Below, in pieces: positions 127-59,302 of a DNA stretch of 64,000 nt. A program made the position numbers and the translations under genes. Under the pieces are notes generated by a model. It searched no databases. It was not told the DNA's origin and worked only from the letters and a program-made list of their open reading frames with translations. Source of the DNA: a phage; sequence record NC_129898.1; one strand, written 5' to 3'. Every line of letters begins with the position of its first letter. Positions within the stretch are counted from its first letter, which is position 1.

Positions 127-147
127 TTAGTAAGACGTGAGTATAAA

Positions 148-165
148 GGGGAGGAACTCCTCCCC
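148..165 (+). promoter_or_regulatory. 5'-leader stem-loop upstream of methyltransferase gene
   Basis: GGGGAGG-AACT-CCTCCCC inverted repeat followed by CA-rich leader and purine-rich RBS before ATG 191; same layout recurs before many genes. Confidence 0.4.
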
Positions 166-190
166 ACAAAACTGGGGAGAGCACCAAACG

Positions 191-1531
191 ATGAGCAAAA
201 CCAAATTAGAGCTTACCTGGACAGGCAAAAACGAGCGAAAAAAGTTAGATCCGTGCATTTTGTTAGAAGATACGAGCAAGTCTTATCACGCCAGTCAAAA
301 GGTTACCGAAAACGATATTTTTGATAATAAACTGATTTTTGGCGATAACTTACTGGCATTGAAGGCACTAGAGCAAGAGTATGCAGGCAAAGTGAAGTGT
401 GTTTACATAGACCCACCATTCAATACCGGAAGGGATTTTGAGCACTACGATGATAGCCTGGAGCACTCCATTTGGCTGGGCTTAATGCGGGACAGGTTAG
501 AAATAATTCGTAATCTGCTAAGCGATGATGGAGTAATATTCGTTCACCTAGATGACTGCGAAATGGCTTATTTAAAAGTTTTGATGGACGAGATTTTTGG
601 TCGTGCAAATCAGTTAAATACCATATCGATGACCACGAACTGTCCTTCGGGCTTTAAGGCAACAGGAACTACAGTTTTCTCCACAGCAAACTTTTTGCTT
701 GTATATGCAAAAGATCGTACCAAGAAGCCGCTTAACAAAATCTATATACCTAAAGGATATGATACGGGATATAACAAATATCTATTAAACCCGGATGACC
801 ATTATAAAAGTTGGACGTGGTGCGGTATTGCCGATGCGTTTGCAAAGGCCAATGGCTATAAAGATACAAAAGAGGCCAAGAAAAAACTGCCTGATACATT
901 TGATGATGAATTAGCACAATTTGCAATTGATAATGCAGAACGTGTATTTCAATCCGTTGCAATTGGCGGCGGTGCTAAGATAAAGAGAAAAGAAACTATC
1001 GAGAAGTCAAAGAAAGACAGGGATAAGGTTTATGTACATCCAAATGAGGATGTCGAAGGCTTTTATATCGTAAATGGTAGGCAAATGGTATTTTACTCTA
1101 ATAGGCTTTTGGAAATTGACGGTGAGATGCAGCCTGCTGAACTAATAACTGATGTTTGGACTGACATTAGTTGGAATGGAATAGCAAATGAAGGAGGCGT
1201 TAGTTTCAAAAATGGGAAAAAACCTGAAGCGCTTTTAAAGCGGATTTTCGAAATGTGTACGCGAGAAGGGGATTTAGTCTTGGATTCGTTCGGCGGTTCA
1301 GGAACTACTGCTGCTGTAGCTCACAAGATGAAAAGACGTTGGATCTCGGTCGAGCTAGGTGATCATTGTCATACCCATATCATCCCGCGCTTGCAAAAAG
1401 TGATCGATGGCGAAGATCAAAGTGGTATTTCTAAATCTGTAAACTGGCAAGGTGGCGGCGGCTTTCGCTATTACAAACTTACCCCGAACTTAGTTGTGAA
1501 AGATAGGTTTGACTCAGAAGAAGATTTATAG
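191..1531 (+). CDS. DNA methyltransferase, beta-class (Type III Mod-like N6-adenine/N4-cytosine family)
   Basis: LELTWTGK N-terminus; motif IV IDPPFNTG precedes motif I LDSFGGSGTT. Start moved from 137 to ATG 191 because 137 lies inside the leader hairpin. Confidence 0.85.
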   Translation: MSKTKLELTWTGKNERKKLDPCILLEDTSKSYHASQKVTENDIFDNKLIFGDNLLALKALEQEYAGKVKCVYIDPPFNTGRDFEHYDDSLEHSIWLGLMRDRLEIIRNLLSDDGVIFVHLDDCEMAYLKVLMDEIFGRANQLNTISMTTNCPSGFKATGTTVFSTANFLLVYAKDRTKKPLNKIYIPKGYDTGYNKYLLNPDDHYKSWTWCGIADAFAKANGYKDTKEAKKKLPDTFDDELAQFAIDNAERVFQSVAIGGGAKIKRKETIEKSKKDRDKVYVHPNEDVEGFYIVNGRQMVFYSNRLLEIDGEMQPAELITDVWTDISWNGIANEGGVSFKNGKKPEALLKRIFEMCTREGDLVLDSFGGSGTTAAVAHKMKRRWISVELGDHCHTHIIPRLQKVIDGEDQSGISKSVNWQGGGGFRYYKLTPNLVVKDRFDSEEDL

Positions 1532-42136: not shown

Positions 42137-42670
42137 TCATTTCAAGTCTGCCTCTGGTGGTGCCAACCACATAAATGGCGGCAAGTCTAGACGGTTTTTC
42201 TTGTCCCATACAAAATATGCATATGCCTGCCCATCCGTTCTACCATTGGATTGGAATGACGGACGCTTAGATATTGTGATCACAGTGGTAGGTGCATTAT
42301 CAAGCCACCATTCAAATCTGGCCTTGCTTTCCAGAAAATTAAGACGCAAAAGCATAATAACTACATCGGCATCTTTCAACGCCTTGTCTACAAACTCACG
42401 AGCCAAGCTGTACGGTGGGTTGGTGATAATACAGTCAACATGGTTGTATTCTGTATTCAGATAGTCAACACCTTCTTGGATTTCTCCCCATGCAGATCCT
42501 AACGGCATACGGGAGTAGAACACACCTGAGGCACTATTCCTGCAAGGCTCTAAGTAAGTCCAGTCTTCTGGGAACGGAATAAGGTCATACAGCCCTTCTG
42601 CACACCACTCCGGTGTCACATACTCATCGTAAGCGTTACGTTGTTCATCAGGTTTTCTAGCACAAGTCAT
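42137..42670 (-). CDS. DNA N6-adenine methyltransferase (phage Dam-like, small)
   Basis: YVTPEW N-terminal motif and DCIITNPPY catalytic motif. Confidence 0.8.
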   Translation of the reverse strand: MTCARKPDEQRNAYDEYVTPEWCAEGLYDLIPFPEDWTYLEPCRNSASGVFYSRMPLGSAWGEIQEGVDYLNTEYNHVDCIITNPPYSLAREFVDKALKDADVVIMLLRLNFLESKARFEWWLDNAPTTVITISKRPSFQSNGRTDGQAYAYFVWDKKNRLDLPPFMWLAPPEADLK

Positions 42671-56255: not shown

Positions 56256-56714
56256 TTAGAAGTTTGTTTTTACACGTCCCTTTTCATCTACTTCGTTGTT
56301 AGCTAAAAGCGTTACAAAGTCTGTAAAACGAACATGAAGAACTCTTTTCTTATCCAGGTATCCTAAAGCCACACCTGAGAAATTTACCATCAAAGGTGCT
56401 AAAGAAGCTCTAGCACTGAAATGCTGCTGTTCCACTCTTCCAACACCCTTAGTATAAGAAGGGTTGAGATTGTAAGTTCTGAATCCAAGTTTTGTTGGAG
56501 CTTTAGAATTAAAAACAACTTTATAACGTTTCTTACTCAGCTTATGTTCCAGAATAAGCATGCCCTTTTCGCCACGGATAAGCTGAAAATCTGTAAAATG
56601 CTCTTTTAAGACAAAAGGTAGTGCCAGCCCCATAGCCTGCCCCCTTTGCACGGCTGTCTCACCAAAAGCTTTTGCATCAGTAAGCTCTTTAGTCAAGTCT
56701 ATACTTTTGATCAT
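56256..56714 (-). CDS. hypothetical protein next to methyltransferase
   Basis: Overlaps 3' end of the methyltransferase gene by 26 nt; weak D-x15-E-H-K pattern. Confidence 0.45.
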   Translation of the reverse strand: MIKSIDLTKELTDAKAFGETAVQRGQAMGLALPFVLKEHFTDFQLIRGEKGMLILEHKLSKKRYKVVFNSKAPTKLGFRTYNLNPSYTKGVGRVEQQHFSARASLAPLMVNFSGVALGYLDKKRVLHVRFTDFVTLLANNEVDEKGRVKTNF

Positions 56715-57525
56715 ACCTGGTCTCCAAAATGTATTGTAGTTCTTTCTTGCCTATACTCTTCATTCCAGCAGTCTTACCTGCTTCTTCTTGAAAAGAAGAA
56801 TAGCATTCAGCAAACACTCTGTCAACACCATCAACTAAAGATTTTATGAAATATGTTGATTCTTCAGATTTTGGGTCATCCTTCCCCAATACTTTTCCAG
56901 CATTATACCCAACACGCCTTATGCAGAAGTCGTAGTCATCTGGTGTACTAAAAGAAAATAGCTTATTCTCCCCAATCTCTACAGGATCCCTATTGCACAC
57001 CTTTTTCTCCCAAATTTGGAAAACACATGGCACGTCATAAGGTTTGCCGTTGAGTAAAAACGAGTTCTTGGGGCACCTTTCGCTGTAAATAAGGTGCATC
57101 GACATGTCCAGTTTGTTTGCAAAAAATATTTTTTCAAATGTCCGTGGCAAGATGAAGGCTATAGCCCCACCAGGCTCTAGCAATGATGCACAGTGGTTAA
57201 AAAACTTGCAAGCTAAAGACGAATTTTTGCCGAATGGAGGATTACCTATGAAGACATCAGCTTTAGGGTACACCTCTAAGAAGTTTGCCTTAATACACGG
57301 TGTTGGGCCTTCAAATTCAGGATCTGGTACCAAATCGTACGACAGTATCTCTGAAAATAGTTTTGAAAAAGAACCCTTTCCAGCAGAAGGCTCAACGTAT
57401 GCACAACTCCCATACTTACCTTTTACTTTACCAACAAGATATTCTGCATACTCAGGGTCTGTGTAATATTTGTCGTTGGACTCTTTCTTGCTCAAGGTGC
57501 CTCCAAAATGAAAAGGGAGGCGCAA
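56689..57525 (-). CDS. DNA N6-adenine methyltransferase (gamma-class)
   Basis: Motif I EPSAGKGSF precedes motif IV GNPPFG. Confidence 0.75.
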   Translation of the reverse strand: MRLPFHFGGTLSKKESNDKYYTDPEYAEYLVGKVKGKYGSCAYVEPSAGKGSFSKLFSEILSYDLVPDPEFEGPTPCIKANFLEVYPKADVFIGNPPFGKNSSLACKFFNHCASLLEPGGAIAFILPRTFEKIFFANKLDMSMHLIYSERCPKNSFLLNGKPYDVPCVFQIWEKKVCNRDPVEIGENKLFSFSTPDDYDFCIRRVGYNAGKVLGKDDPKSEESTYFIKSLVDGVDRVFAECYSSFQEEAGKTAGMKSIGKKELQYILETRYDQKYRLD

Positions 57526-58536: not shown

Positions 58537-58752
58537 TTAGTAAAACTGAAGAATGTCTTTTAAAGCGAAGTCACGATATTCGCCCTTGTCTACATCAAAT
58601 GCATGCATCAACCACTGCTCTTCTTTATGATACTCTGTAGATCCAAACCATAAACTAGGCTCAGTAACGCAGCGATCTGCAACAACACCTTTCCAGTTAC
58701 GGTATTTCATTCTGATCAGAACTGAATCGCAAGGATTGAATACCTTTTTCAT
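58537..58752 (-). CDS. hypothetical small protein
   Basis: ORF; start uncertain. Confidence 0.35.
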   Translation of the reverse strand: MKKVFNPCDSVLIRMKYRNWKGVVADRCVTEPSLWFGSTEYHKEEQWLMHAFDVDKGEYRDFALKDILQFY

Positions 58753-59302
58753 CCCCATAGAAATCTCTCTCCTCAGTTTTCTTTATAAACTCCTGCATGT
58801 ATGCCTCAATAGCCTCATGCTTGGTGTACTCTGAATTAATGACAAGATCGAGATCCGATTCTGCCCGTGCAATAATCGTAGCCTTAGAGCATCTCCTCAA
58901 GAACTTTGTCATATCATCTCTGTAGTTTTTGTGGAGCGGGAAGTCGCTGTAGTCTTTCTCCAGATAGTCAGCCATCCGGCGCAACGCCTCTGATAAACTG
59001 CAATCTGTGTACTCGTTACAGTATTTCATCCAGTATTTAAGCACATACCCCTCGAAGGTATTAGTGCATTGGGACAAAACACCCCTGCAACGACCAGTCA
59101 GATGATCATGATCTAAACAAGGCTTACGAAGTGGTTCACACAAGATCGGATCAAGACCATCCTGCTCTTCTGACAATTCTTTTCGAAAGTTGGCTATGTC
59201 CTTAGAATCTTTTAGCCACCCGCTATGAACGGGGGCTTTGACAGCTTTCTTTCTTATTTTACGCTTTGCGATAATCCCTCCAGATGCGCCCTGCCTATCC
59301 AA
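58697..59302 (-). CDS. endonuclease VII-family protein
   Basis: CLDHDHLTGRCRGVLSQCTN matches Endonuclease_7 hallmark. Confidence 0.7.
   Translation of the reverse strand: MDRQGASGGIIAKRKIRKKAVKAPVHSGWLKDSKDIANFRKELSEEQDGLDPILCEPLRKPCLDHDHLTGRCRGVLSQCTNTFEGYVLKYWMKYCNEYTDCSLSEALRRMADYLEKDYSDFPLHKNYRDDMTKFLRRCSKATIIARAESDLDLVINSEYTKHEAIEAYMQEFIKKTEERDFYGDEKGIQSLRFSSDQNEIP

What the first reader, a model, noticed from the sequence alone, without database searches (positions are those of the whole stretch)
56256..57525. Gamma-class adenine methyltransferase translationally coupled to a small unknown ORF
The 152 aa ORF overlaps the 3' end of the methyltransferase gene by 26 nt and has a weak D-x15-E-H-K spacing. 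That is compatible with, but far from proof of, a PD-(D/E)xK nuclease, so a small restriction-modification pair is possible. This is speculative.
Basis: inference. Interest (0 to 1): 0.4.

Follow-up and report, generated by a model that had tools for sequence, protein, structure and literature searches.

The report
Phage methyltransferase with nuclease-dead restriction-enzyme partner
In this rV5-like E. coli phage, an adenine methyltransferase gene overlaps a small gene that descends from an RsaI-type (GTAC) restriction enzyme, has lost all four catalytic residues and is still strongly conserved, so the pair is a domesticated remnant of a restriction-modification cassette rather than a working one.

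Summary
On the minus strand, a 268-aa gamma-class N6-adenine methyltransferase (56689-57495, TTG start) overlaps a 152-aa ORF (56256-56714) by 26 nt. The window is a Vequintavirus, 98.7% identical to phage HMD-6.

The four catalytic residues (E, D, ExK) are present in 7/7 canonical relatives. In all 13 phage-family sequences compared they are replaced by P33, I/V54, K/R65 and V67-type residues.

The gene is nevertheless under strong purifying selection (dN/dS 0.03-0.10). It sits next to the methyltransferase in six phage lineages, in both gene orders, and persists without it in two.

Published Bas51 methylome data show GTAC m6A that does not depend on the phage's GATC methylase. This methyltransferase probably writes that mark. 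The small protein is most likely a non-cleaving DNA-binding derivative.

The parts
56689..57495 (-). Gamma-class N6-adenine DNA methyltransferase, 268 aa, TTG start; proposed GTAC (GTm6AC) specificity
   Evidence: ORF and sequence. The same start is annotated in HMD-6 and Bas59. phrog_5172 E 5e-125. PADLOC MTase_II PDLC03255 matches full length, E 2.4e-32. Motifs align with M.TaqI. More than 800 homologs. The GTAC specificity is inferred.
57500..57504 (-). GGAGG Shine-Dalgarno, 4 nt upstream of the methyltransferase TTG start
   Evidence: Read directly from the sequence.
57367..57393 (-). Methyltransferase motif I, EPSAGKGSF (aa 35-43), SAM binding
   Evidence: Aligned to M.TaqI EPACAHGPF. E35, P36, G39, G41 and F43 are invariant in 31 homologs.
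57232..57243 (-). Methyltransferase motif IV, NPPF (aa 85-88), catalytic
   Evidence: Aligned to M.TaqI NPPY. G84-N85-P86-P87-F88-G89 are invariant.
56256..56714 (-). 152-aa small ORF: nuclease-dead homolog of RsaI-family Type II restriction endonucleases (PD-(D/E)xK fold)
56689..56714 (-). 26-nt overlap between the 3' end of the methyltransferase gene and the 5' end of the small ORF
   Evidence: the same overlap is annotated in HMD-6 and Bas59.
56722..56725 (-). GGAG Shine-Dalgarno for the small ORF, inside the methyltransferase coding sequence, 7 nt before the ATG
   Evidence: Read directly from the sequence.
56436..56462 (-). Loop PSYTKGVGR (aa 85-93): the motif the phage family shares with canonical RsaI-like enzymes (PS..G.GR); disordered in the model; candidate DNA-contact loop
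   Evidence: P85, S86, G90 and R93 are invariant. The motif is shared with RsaI-like proteins. pLDDT is below 50 for residues 86-95. The DNA-contact role is inference.
56514..56618 (-). Segment holding the four ex-catalytic positions: P33 (56616-56618), I54 (56553-56555), K65 (56520-56522), V67 (56514-56516)
   Evidence: Column mapping to E60/D79/E89/K91 of Syn19_153 by hhalign and MAFFT.

Best explanation
The two genes are what remains of an RsaI-type (GTAC) Type II restriction-modification cassette captured by large lytic phages. The 268-aa gamma-class methyltransferase is active and most likely writes the GTm6AC mark seen on Vequintavirus DNA. The 152-aa protein descends from the cognate small PD-(D/E)xK endonuclease. 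It has lost the metal-binding and catalytic residues (E->P33, D->I54, E->K65, K->V67) while keeping the fold and the PS..G.GR loop. The phage maintains it as a non-cleaving protein. The most likely role is a basic (pI ~10) DNA-binding protein that still recognises GTAC-type sites, and possibly their methylation state. It is made in fixed proportion with the methyltransferase through the overlapping reading frames. Shown here: gene structure, fold, homology, loss of catalytic residues, purifying selection, and conserved linkage. Inferred: GTAC specificity, DNA binding without cleavage, and the biological role.

For: Homology: three bacterial loci carry a ~163-aa ORF directly downstream of a 34-40% identical homolog of this methyltransferase. 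That ORF hits the small-ORF HMM, and jackhmmer joins the two groups. These ORFs and Syn19_153 all match the PADLOC Type II REase model PDLC03550 (best E 9.6e-15). Profile-profile comparison gives 94.4%, E 9e-8 over 100 columns.

Active site: E/D/E/K are present in 7/7 canonical members (one K->R). The 13 phage-family sequences have P/(I,V)/(K,R)/(V,I,F,S,C) at those columns.

Function retained: dN/dS is 0.03-0.10 at dS 0.4-0.9, as low as for the methyltransferase.

Linkage: the small gene is adjacent to the methyltransferase in six lineages, in three different genomic neighbourhoods and in both orders. It is alone in two lineages.

GTAC: in Bas51, a Vequintavirus, m6A counts are GATC 1405 / GTAC 509 in wild type. 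In a T83P mutant of the GATC methylase they are GATC 35 / GTAC 511 (PMC12548924 S4 table). The mutated residues D69, D79 and T83 match the other small methylase at 42137..42670, not this one. The window's GTAC and GATC densities extrapolate to about 570 and 1470 adenines per 137 kb, which fits near-complete methylation. Syn19's RsaI-like gene overlaps an SPPY-motif methylase. M.RsaI is an m4C enzyme (PMC6256690), and SPPY is typical of m4C methylases (my own knowledge).
Against: No biochemical data exist for either protein. The label 'R.RsaI' on the cyanophage protein is a depositor's annotation. I could not compare with the REBASE R.RsaI sequence itself, so GTAC specificity for the family is indirect. 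The window also encodes a 464-aa beta-class N6_N4 methylase (137..1531) that could be the GTAC enzyme instead. The small protein does not reach the PADLOC REase model at E<=1, so homology rests on profile-profile, jackhmmer and fold evidence. The phage family has its own conserved charged positions (acidic at 49 in 13/13, acidic at 38 in 12/13, K/R65), so a rebuilt active site cannot be excluded. I had no model coordinates to check geometry. DNA binding and its sequence specificity are untested. 'Small gene alone' rests on partial contigs (30-40 kb of what may be ~150 kb genomes).
Confidence: 0.6

Rival explanations
1. It is a working small Type II restriction-modification pair. The 152-aa protein cuts unmethylated DNA (for example host GTAC sites) using a relocated active site, and the methyltransferase protects phage DNA, as in chlorella-virus R-M systems.
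For: The fold is REase-like and the protein is homologous to a Type II REase family. The two genes are tightly linked and translationally coupled across lineages. In Vequintavirus, D42, E56 and K58 are all present. The family also has an invariant acidic residue at 49, a mostly acidic residue at 38, and K/R at 65. Active-site relocation is known in PD-(D/E)xK enzymes such as Cfr10I and NgoMIV (my own knowledge).
Against: All four canonical catalytic positions are replaced in all 13 phage-family sequences, including Glu to Pro and Asp to Ile/Val. D42, E56 and K58 are not conserved: E56 is Q in four lineages and K58 is S/L/I in others. K65 is R in Phapecoctavirus. Two lineages keep the small gene with no methyltransferase in the DNA held, within +-10 kb in one of them; that would be self-destructive for an active enzyme.
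Confidence: 0.12
2. The small protein is an accessory subunit of the methyltransferase. It binds the enzyme, with or without DNA, and sets or boosts its activity, specificity or timing, and has no independent DNA-binding role.
For: Overlapping or near-abutting reading frames in every paired lineage imply co-translation. The methyltransferase has a weak TTG start in both Vequintavirus and Phapecoctavirus. At 268 aa the methyltransferase is short for a gamma-class enzyme; M.TaqI is 421 aa.
Against: More than 800 homologs of the methyltransferase exist, while the small-ORF family has only about a dozen clusters. Of the 80 bacterial loci kept, 77 show no relative of the small ORF in the 3-kb flanks held. 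The enzyme is therefore probably autonomous. Two lineages keep the small gene without the methyltransferase. No classical Type II REase-fold methyltransferase subunit is known to me.
Confidence: 0.18
3. The small ORF is a decaying, functionless relic of a restriction gene that merely hitch-hikes next to a useful orphan methyltransferase.
For: Loss of all catalytic residues. Asymmetric loss of REase activity with retention of the methyltransferase is common, for example HpyAXII in H. pylori (PMC2588503).
Against: dN/dS is 0.03-0.10 at dS up to 0.9. The reading frame is intact in the 119 phage records that cover at least 80% of the ORF, out of 185 with a match, and across lineages only 23-35% identical. 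New invariant residues (Q26, P33, G146) have appeared. The gene is retained where the methyltransferase is absent.
Confidence: 0.05

Closest known systems
RsaI-type Type II R-M cassettes: a small (~160-170 aa) PD-(D/E)xK endonuclease plus a methyltransferase. Examples: Syn19_153/154 in cyanophage Syn19, and the bacterial pairs in L027, L029 and L073.
   Same: Same fold and detectable homology of the small protein. The PS..G.GR loop is shared. The size is similar. The gene sits next to, and overlaps or abuts, a methyltransferase. In the three bacterial loci the partner is a homolog of this same gamma-class methyltransferase, in the same M->R order.
   Different: The catalytic E, D and ExK are all replaced here. 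There is no hit to the REBASE-derived REase HMM. Syn19's partner is a beta-class SPPY methylase, not a gamma-class one. M.RsaI itself makes m4C, whereas this phage clade carries m6A at GTAC.
M.HpyAXII / M.PabI-type gamma-class GTm6AC methyltransferases
   Same: Gamma-class N6-adenine enzymes with motif IV at almost the same position (N87 in M.HpyAXII, N85 here) and only weak similarity to the M.TaqI catalytic domain (PMC2588503). The proposed target, GTAC, is the same.
   Different: Sequence homology to M.HpyAXII was not tested because no sequence was at hand. Their partner endonucleases (PabI family) are half-pipe-fold DNA glycosylases, not PD-(D/E)xK proteins.
dcm-vsr arrangement in E. coli: a small PD-(D/E)xK-like endonuclease gene overlapping the 3' end of a methyltransferase gene
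   Same: Methyltransferase gene first, then a ~150-aa nuclease-fold gene that overlaps its 3' end and is translationally coupled (my own knowledge of dcm-vsr).
Catalytically inactive REase-fold DNA-binding modules, for example the Sau3AI C-terminal effector domain and the EcoRII/NaeI effector domains
   Same: A REase fold kept for sequence-specific DNA binding without cleavage (my own knowledge). This is the working model for the small protein.
   Different: Those are domains inside active enzymes. This is a free-standing phage protein with no active partner nuclease identified.
Virus-encoded R-M systems of chlorella viruses, for example CviQI (G/TAC)
   Same: A virus-borne methyltransferase plus small endonuclease that marks viral DNA. 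Homologs of this methyltransferase also occur on giant-virus-like contigs.
   Different: The chlorella-virus endonucleases are active and degrade host DNA (my own knowledge). Here the active site is gone.

Membership tests
Gamma-class N6-adenine DNA methyltransferase (Type II) | Linear motif order X - I - IV, with the target-recognition region at the C-terminus | tested here: met
   YYTDPEYA (aa 10-17), then EPSAGKGSF (35-43), then NPPF (85-88), aligned in this order to M.TaqI.
Gamma-class N6-adenine DNA methyltransferase (Type II) | Catalytic motif IV (D/N/S)PP(Y/F) and SAM-binding motif I | tested here: met
   G84-N85-P86-P87-F88-G89 and E35/P36/G39/G41/F43 are invariant in 31 homologs.
Gamma-class N6-adenine DNA methyltransferase (Type II) | Significant match to a curated methyltransferase profile | tested here: inconclusive
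   PADLOC MTase_II PDLC03255 matches full length at E 2.4e-32. Pfam Eco57I and MTS score only 17.5 and 15.7 bits, below their gathering cut-offs. There is no NCBIfam hit.
Gamma-class N6-adenine DNA methyltransferase (Type II) | Demonstrated m6A formation at a defined sequence | not testable with these tools
   Indirect only: Bas51 DNA carries GTAC m6A that is independent of the GATC methylase. Assigning that mark to this gene is inference.
PD-(D/E)xK Type II restriction endonuclease (RsaI-like, PADLOC PDLC03550) | alpha-beta-beta-beta-alpha-beta restriction-endonuclease-like core fold | tested here: met
PD-(D/E)xK Type II restriction endonuclease (RsaI-like, PADLOC PDLC03550) | Sequence membership in the family profile | tested here: not met
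   No PADLOC hit at E<=1 for the 152-aa protein, whereas 4/4 canonical relatives match PDLC03550. Only remote homology is seen: hhalign 94.4%, E 9e-8.
PD-(D/E)xK Type II restriction endonuclease (RsaI-like, PADLOC PDLC03550) | Catalytic residues: Glu on helix 1, Asp on strand 2, (D/E)xK on strand 3 | tested here: not met
   E60/D79/E89/K91 of Syn19_153 correspond to P33/I54/K65/V67 here. They are replaced in 13/13 phage-family sequences and present in 7/7 canonical ones.
PD-(D/E)xK Type II restriction endonuclease (RsaI-like, PADLOC PDLC03550) | Mg2+-dependent site-specific DNA cleavage | not testable with these tools
   Needs purified protein.
Functional Type II restriction-modification system | Adjacent genes for a methyltransferase and an active endonuclease of the same specificity | tested here: not met
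   Adjacency is met. The endonuclease active site is not met. The small gene also occurs without the methyltransferase.
Vsr-type mismatch endonuclease coupled to a methyltransferase | Partner is a C5-cytosine methyltransferase, and the protein has a Vsr-like fold and catalytic Asp/His | tested here: not met
R-M controller (C) protein | Small helix-turn-helix protein | tested here: not met
   The model is a mixed alpha/beta REase-like fold. There is no HTH family hit.

The most novel reading that the evidence does not exclude
The 152-aa protein is a restriction enzyme turned into a reader. It binds GTAC only when the site is unmethylated, as its RsaI-type ancestors must have. This would let the phage tell host or foreign DNA (unmethylated) from its own GTm6AC-marked genome. 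Possible uses are to silence or mark host DNA, to shield not-yet-methylated sites, or to time replication and packaging. That would be a phage-encoded epigenetic self/non-self reader built from a dead nuclease.
Probability: 0.2. Interest if true: 0.75.

Novelty: new variant of a known kind. Interest (0 to 1): 0.5.

Why it matters
Every database entry found for the small protein, in more than 180 phage genomes, calls it 'hypothetical'. This work gives it an ancestry and a testable role.

It also offers a candidate gene for the GTAC m6A mark. That mark is visible in the published Bas51 methylome data, but in the passages and supplementary table read here it was not assigned to a gene.

A restriction enzyme that has lost its active site, yet is kept under strong selection in several families of large lytic phages, sometimes without its methyltransferase, shows a selfish R-M cassette being domesticated. 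It may also be a source of compact sequence-specific, and perhaps methylation-sensitive, DNA binders.

It bears on why Vequintavirinae carry three methyltransferases and are still highly sensitive to the restriction systems tested in the BASEL study.

Tried and rejected
- Pfam, NCBIfam and PADLOC give nothing for the small ORF. PDB sequence searches with profiles A1 and A3 give nothing useful.
- The first AF2 run, with four near-identical sequences, was unusable (pLDDT 42). Distant homologs from the exhaustive HMM search were needed.
- tblastn of a canonical bacterial RsaI-like protein against the phage collection found nothing.
- I first suspected that the Bas51 retron-trigger 'N6 adenine methyltransferase' (GATC) was this gene. 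I rejected that because D69, D79 and T83 fit the 177-aa methylase at 42137..42670 and not this protein, which has K69, A79 and I83.
- There are no GTAC clusters or operator-like arrangement around the genes.
- A specificity-subunit (HsdS-like) role was considered and rejected because the fold is REase-like.
- A free-standing homing endonuclease (I-Ssp6803I-like) was considered and rejected because the gene is fixed in all relatives, travels with the methyltransferase, and lacks catalytic residues.
- The metagenome scan added only two more Phapecoctavirus-like loci.
- Literature searches for rV5 plus RsaI, and for inactive REase homologs in phages, found nothing relevant.

Full report
**Where the window comes from.** The 3.2 kb around the finding is 98.7% identical to Escherichia phage HMD-6. 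It is 92-98% identical to about 120 rV5/FV3-like phages (Vequintavirus), including twelve records whose host is given as E. coli K-12. The genes lie on the minus strand within a run of replication and nucleotide-metabolism genes. These include ThyX, a 5' nucleotidase, dNMP kinase, a DnaQ-like exonuclease, endonuclease VII and a RuvC-like resolvase.

**Checking the observation.**
- The 152-aa ORF is 56256..56714 on the minus strand.
- The methyltransferase ORF is 56689..57525 by the mechanical ORF rule. Annotated relatives start at the TTG at 57495, giving 268 aa. That start has GGAGG four bases upstream.
- The same TTG start is used by the 53%-identical Phapecoctavirus ortholog.
- The overlap is 26 nt, as stated. 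A GGAG lies 7 nt before the small ORF's ATG, inside the methyltransferase gene.
- Both are real genes: they match phage protein families at E 3e-88 and 5e-125.
- Both evolve under purifying selection. dN/dS is 0.03-0.10 for the small ORF and 0.03-0.10 for the methyltransferase, at dS 0.1-0.9.
- 'Gamma-class' is right. Motifs X, I (EPSAGKGSF) and IV (NPPF) occur in that order and align with M.TaqI, the only PDB relative, though weakly (E 0.06).
- A REBASE-derived Type II methyltransferase HMM matches end to end (E 2.4e-32). Pfam models stay below their thresholds.
Its presence means nothing by itself: 53% of shuffles of this protein contain a D-x(10-30)-[DE]-x-K.

**The small ORF family.** Word-indexed search found only close Vequintavirus copies. 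An exhaustive HMM search of 1.84 billion representatives found five distant relatives. A second indexed search with the enlarged alignment raised this to about a dozen clusters of 131-143 aa, 23-35% identical to the query. Every source calls them 'hypothetical protein'.
- Invariant positions are P33, P85, S86, G90, R93 and G146. Q26, K89 and G92 are nearly invariant. The hallmark is a PS(Y/F)TKGxGR loop.
E56 is Q in four lineages, K58 is S, L or I, and D42 is missing in some.

**Genomic linkage.** The small gene sits directly next to a homolog of this methyltransferase in six phage lineages:
- Vequintavirus: methyltransferase first, 26-nt overlap.
- Phapecoctavirus (phAPEC8): small gene first, 9-nt spacer, between the primase-helicase and the DNA polymerase.
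- Four metagenomic phage lineages: small gene first. The overlap is 8 nt in three of them; the junction in L012 was read only approximately. Two of them lie downstream of ribonucleotide reductase genes.

The pair therefore moves as a unit through different neighbourhoods and in both orders. In two further Phapecoctavirus-like lineages (P0133, P0132) the small gene occupies the same slot but no methyltransferase is found. For P0133 this holds within +-10 kb. For P0132 it holds in the roughly 5 kb of contig that was available. The methyltransferase family is far larger than the small-ORF family: more than 800 proteins in the indexed search and 363 confirmed relatives in bacterial and archaeal genomes. 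It mostly lacks such a partner.

**Structure.** With four near-identical sequences AlphaFold failed (pLDDT 42). With the 13-sequence alignment it gave pLDDT 86.6 and pTM 0.81. Only residues 86-95, the conserved loop, fall below 50.
- Foldseek against viral models returns, after its own orthologs, a 171-aa protein of cyanophage Syn19 named 'R.RsaI endonuclease' (E 6e-4, TM 0.62).

**Homology to a real restriction-enzyme family.**
- In Syn19, the RsaI-like gene (L100:36007-36522) overlaps the next gene by 28 nt. That gene is an SPPY-motif beta-class methylase. This fits the true RsaI system, whose methylase makes m4C at GTAC (PMC6256690).
- Among 80 bacterial loci fetched with the methyltransferase alignment, three have a ~163-aa ORF immediately downstream of the methyltransferase homolog. 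They are a Dehalococcoidia MAG, a Rhodobacteraceae MAG, and one MAG labelled Rickettsia. The ORF hits the small-ORF HMM (E 2.6e-4 and 5.7e-3), and jackhmmer joins it to the phage family.
- By eye and by alignment these ORFs are homologs of Syn19_153. All four match the PADLOC Type II REase model PDLC03550 (best E 9.6e-15).
- Profile-profile comparison of the phage family with this group gives 94.4% probability, E 9e-8, over 100 columns.
- More canonical members came from viral contigs. One is followed by a 184-aa NPPW methylase.

**The active site is gone.** Canonical members carry an invariant Glu on helix 1, an Asp on strand 2 and ExK on strand 3. In Syn19_153 these are E60, D79, E89 and K91. 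They are present in 7/7 members, with one K->R. The matching columns in the phage family are Pro, Ile/Val, Lys/Arg and Val/Ile/Phe/Ser/Cys in 13/13 sequences. In the window they are P33, I54, K65 and V67. The PS..G.GR loop is shared by both groups.

Together with the lineages that keep the gene without a methyltransferase, this argues against an active restriction enzyme. The very low dN/dS, the intact frames across deep divergence, and the newly fixed residues (Q26, P33, G146) argue just as strongly against a dead relic. The Vequintavirus protein is basic, with pI ~10 and 25 K/R against 14 D/E.

**What the methyltransferase probably does.** Nakamura et al. (PMC12548924) found that retron escape mutants of Bas51 map to an 'N6 adenine methyltransferase' at D69G, D79G and T83P. 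A T83P phage loses GATC m6A.
- Those residues fit exactly the other small methylase in this window, 42137..42670 (177 aa...D69...D79-C-I-I-T83-NPPY). That gene is bas59_0157 in Bas59. The gene of this finding has K69, A79 and I83.
- Their source data show a second motif that the mutation does not touch. Wild type has GATC 1405 / GTAC 509 / other 576. The T83P mutant has GATC 35 / GTAC 511 / other 349.
- The window has 133 GTAC and 344 GATC sites in 64 kb. Scaled to 137 kb and two adenines per site, that gives about 570 and 1470, close to the published counts.
- Bas48-59 are the Vequintavirus members of the BASEL collection, by elimination. Bas47 is a T-even phage, Bas60-62 are phi92-like, and Bas50, Bas58 and Bas59 are confirmed.

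So Vequintavirus DNA carries GTm6AC, written by an enzyme that is not the GATC methylase. The partner protein of this methyltransferase descends from an enzyme family labelled RsaI, which recognises GTAC. That makes this gene the leading candidate. The 464-aa beta-class methylase at 137..1531 is the alternative. A gamma-class GTm6AC precedent exists in M.HpyAXII, whose motif IV Asn is at position 87, against 85 here (PMC2588503).

**Conclusion and confidence.**
- About 0.85: the small protein is a catalytically degenerate descendant of an RsaI-like Type II endonuclease.
- About 0.7: the adjacent methyltransferase is the GTAC m6A enzyme.
- About 0.6 for the whole picture, including a non-cleaving DNA-binding role.
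- Rivals: a nuclease with a rebuilt active site (about 0.12), a pure methyltransferase accessory subunit (about 0.18), a functionless relic (about 0.05).

None of the activities has been measured. The RsaI label rests on a depositor's annotation plus a REBASE-derived HMM.

Noticed in passing
window 42137-42670 (-): A 177-aa minimal NPPY methyltransferase. Its residues D69, D79 and T83 match exactly the escape mutations (D69G, D79G, T83P) reported for the Bas51 'N6 adenine methyltransferase', which writes GATC m6A and triggers retrons Asa1 and Squ1 (PMC12548924). It is bas59_0157 in Bas59, with the 'putative glycosidase' of that paper about 1.2 kb away.
   Followed up: partly
window 137-1531 (+): A third methyltransferase: 464 aa, beta-class, DPPF motif, Pfam N6_N4_Mtase E 3.9e-42. 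Its specificity is unknown. It could account for the 'other' m6A sites in Bas51, or be the GTAC enzyme instead of the gene in this finding.
   Followed up: partly
window 57493-57495 and L008/L009/L011/L013: The methyltransferase uses a TTG start codon in both Vequintavirus and the 53%-identical Phapecoctavirus ortholog. This suggests deliberately low or coupled translation.
   Followed up: no
phage collection hits H44-H51, H78-H80 etc. (MG0656xx): About 20 GenBank records named 'Campylobacter phage', with host C. jejuni, are 92-98% identical to E. coli Vequintaviruses across this region. They are probably mislabelled or contaminant assemblies.
   Followed up: no
L003:597-1697 and L005:1-719: TnpB/OrfB_IS605 (Cas12f1-like TNB) genes lie a few kb upstream of the small-ORF/methyltransferase cassette in two unrelated metagenomic phage contigs.
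   Followed up: no
L112:2480-3449: A canonical RsaI-like endonuclease ORF (E, D and ExK intact) is followed, with overlap, by a 184-aa NPPW mini-methyltransferase. It is of the same general size and motif type as the window's 177-aa GATC enzyme. RsaI-like nucleases therefore pair with at least three unrelated methylase types.
   Followed up: partly
whole window: GTAC is the second most under-represented palindromic tetramer (133 observed; 0.67 of the Markov expectation), after CTAG. GATC is at expectation (344).
   Followed up: partly
L014, L015: Homologs of the methyltransferase (42-44% identity) lie on 230-530 kb contigs. Their neighbours include ankyrin, patatin, RCC1 and ART-PolyVal genes, and most genes have no Pfam hit. 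These look like giant-virus or jumbo-phage genomes.
   Followed up: no
H16, Escherichia phage JEP1 MT740314.1 122296-126446: This relative has about 950 extra bases within the 3.2-kb region around the pair. The match is split into two pieces, which suggests an insertion such as a homing endonuclease gene.
   Followed up: no
window 58697-59302 (-) vs 58537-58758 (-): The endonuclease VII ORF extends to 201 aa by the mechanical rule and overlaps the 73-aa downstream gene by 62 nt. Relatives annotate it as 159 aa (Bas59) or not at all (HMD-6).
   Followed up: no
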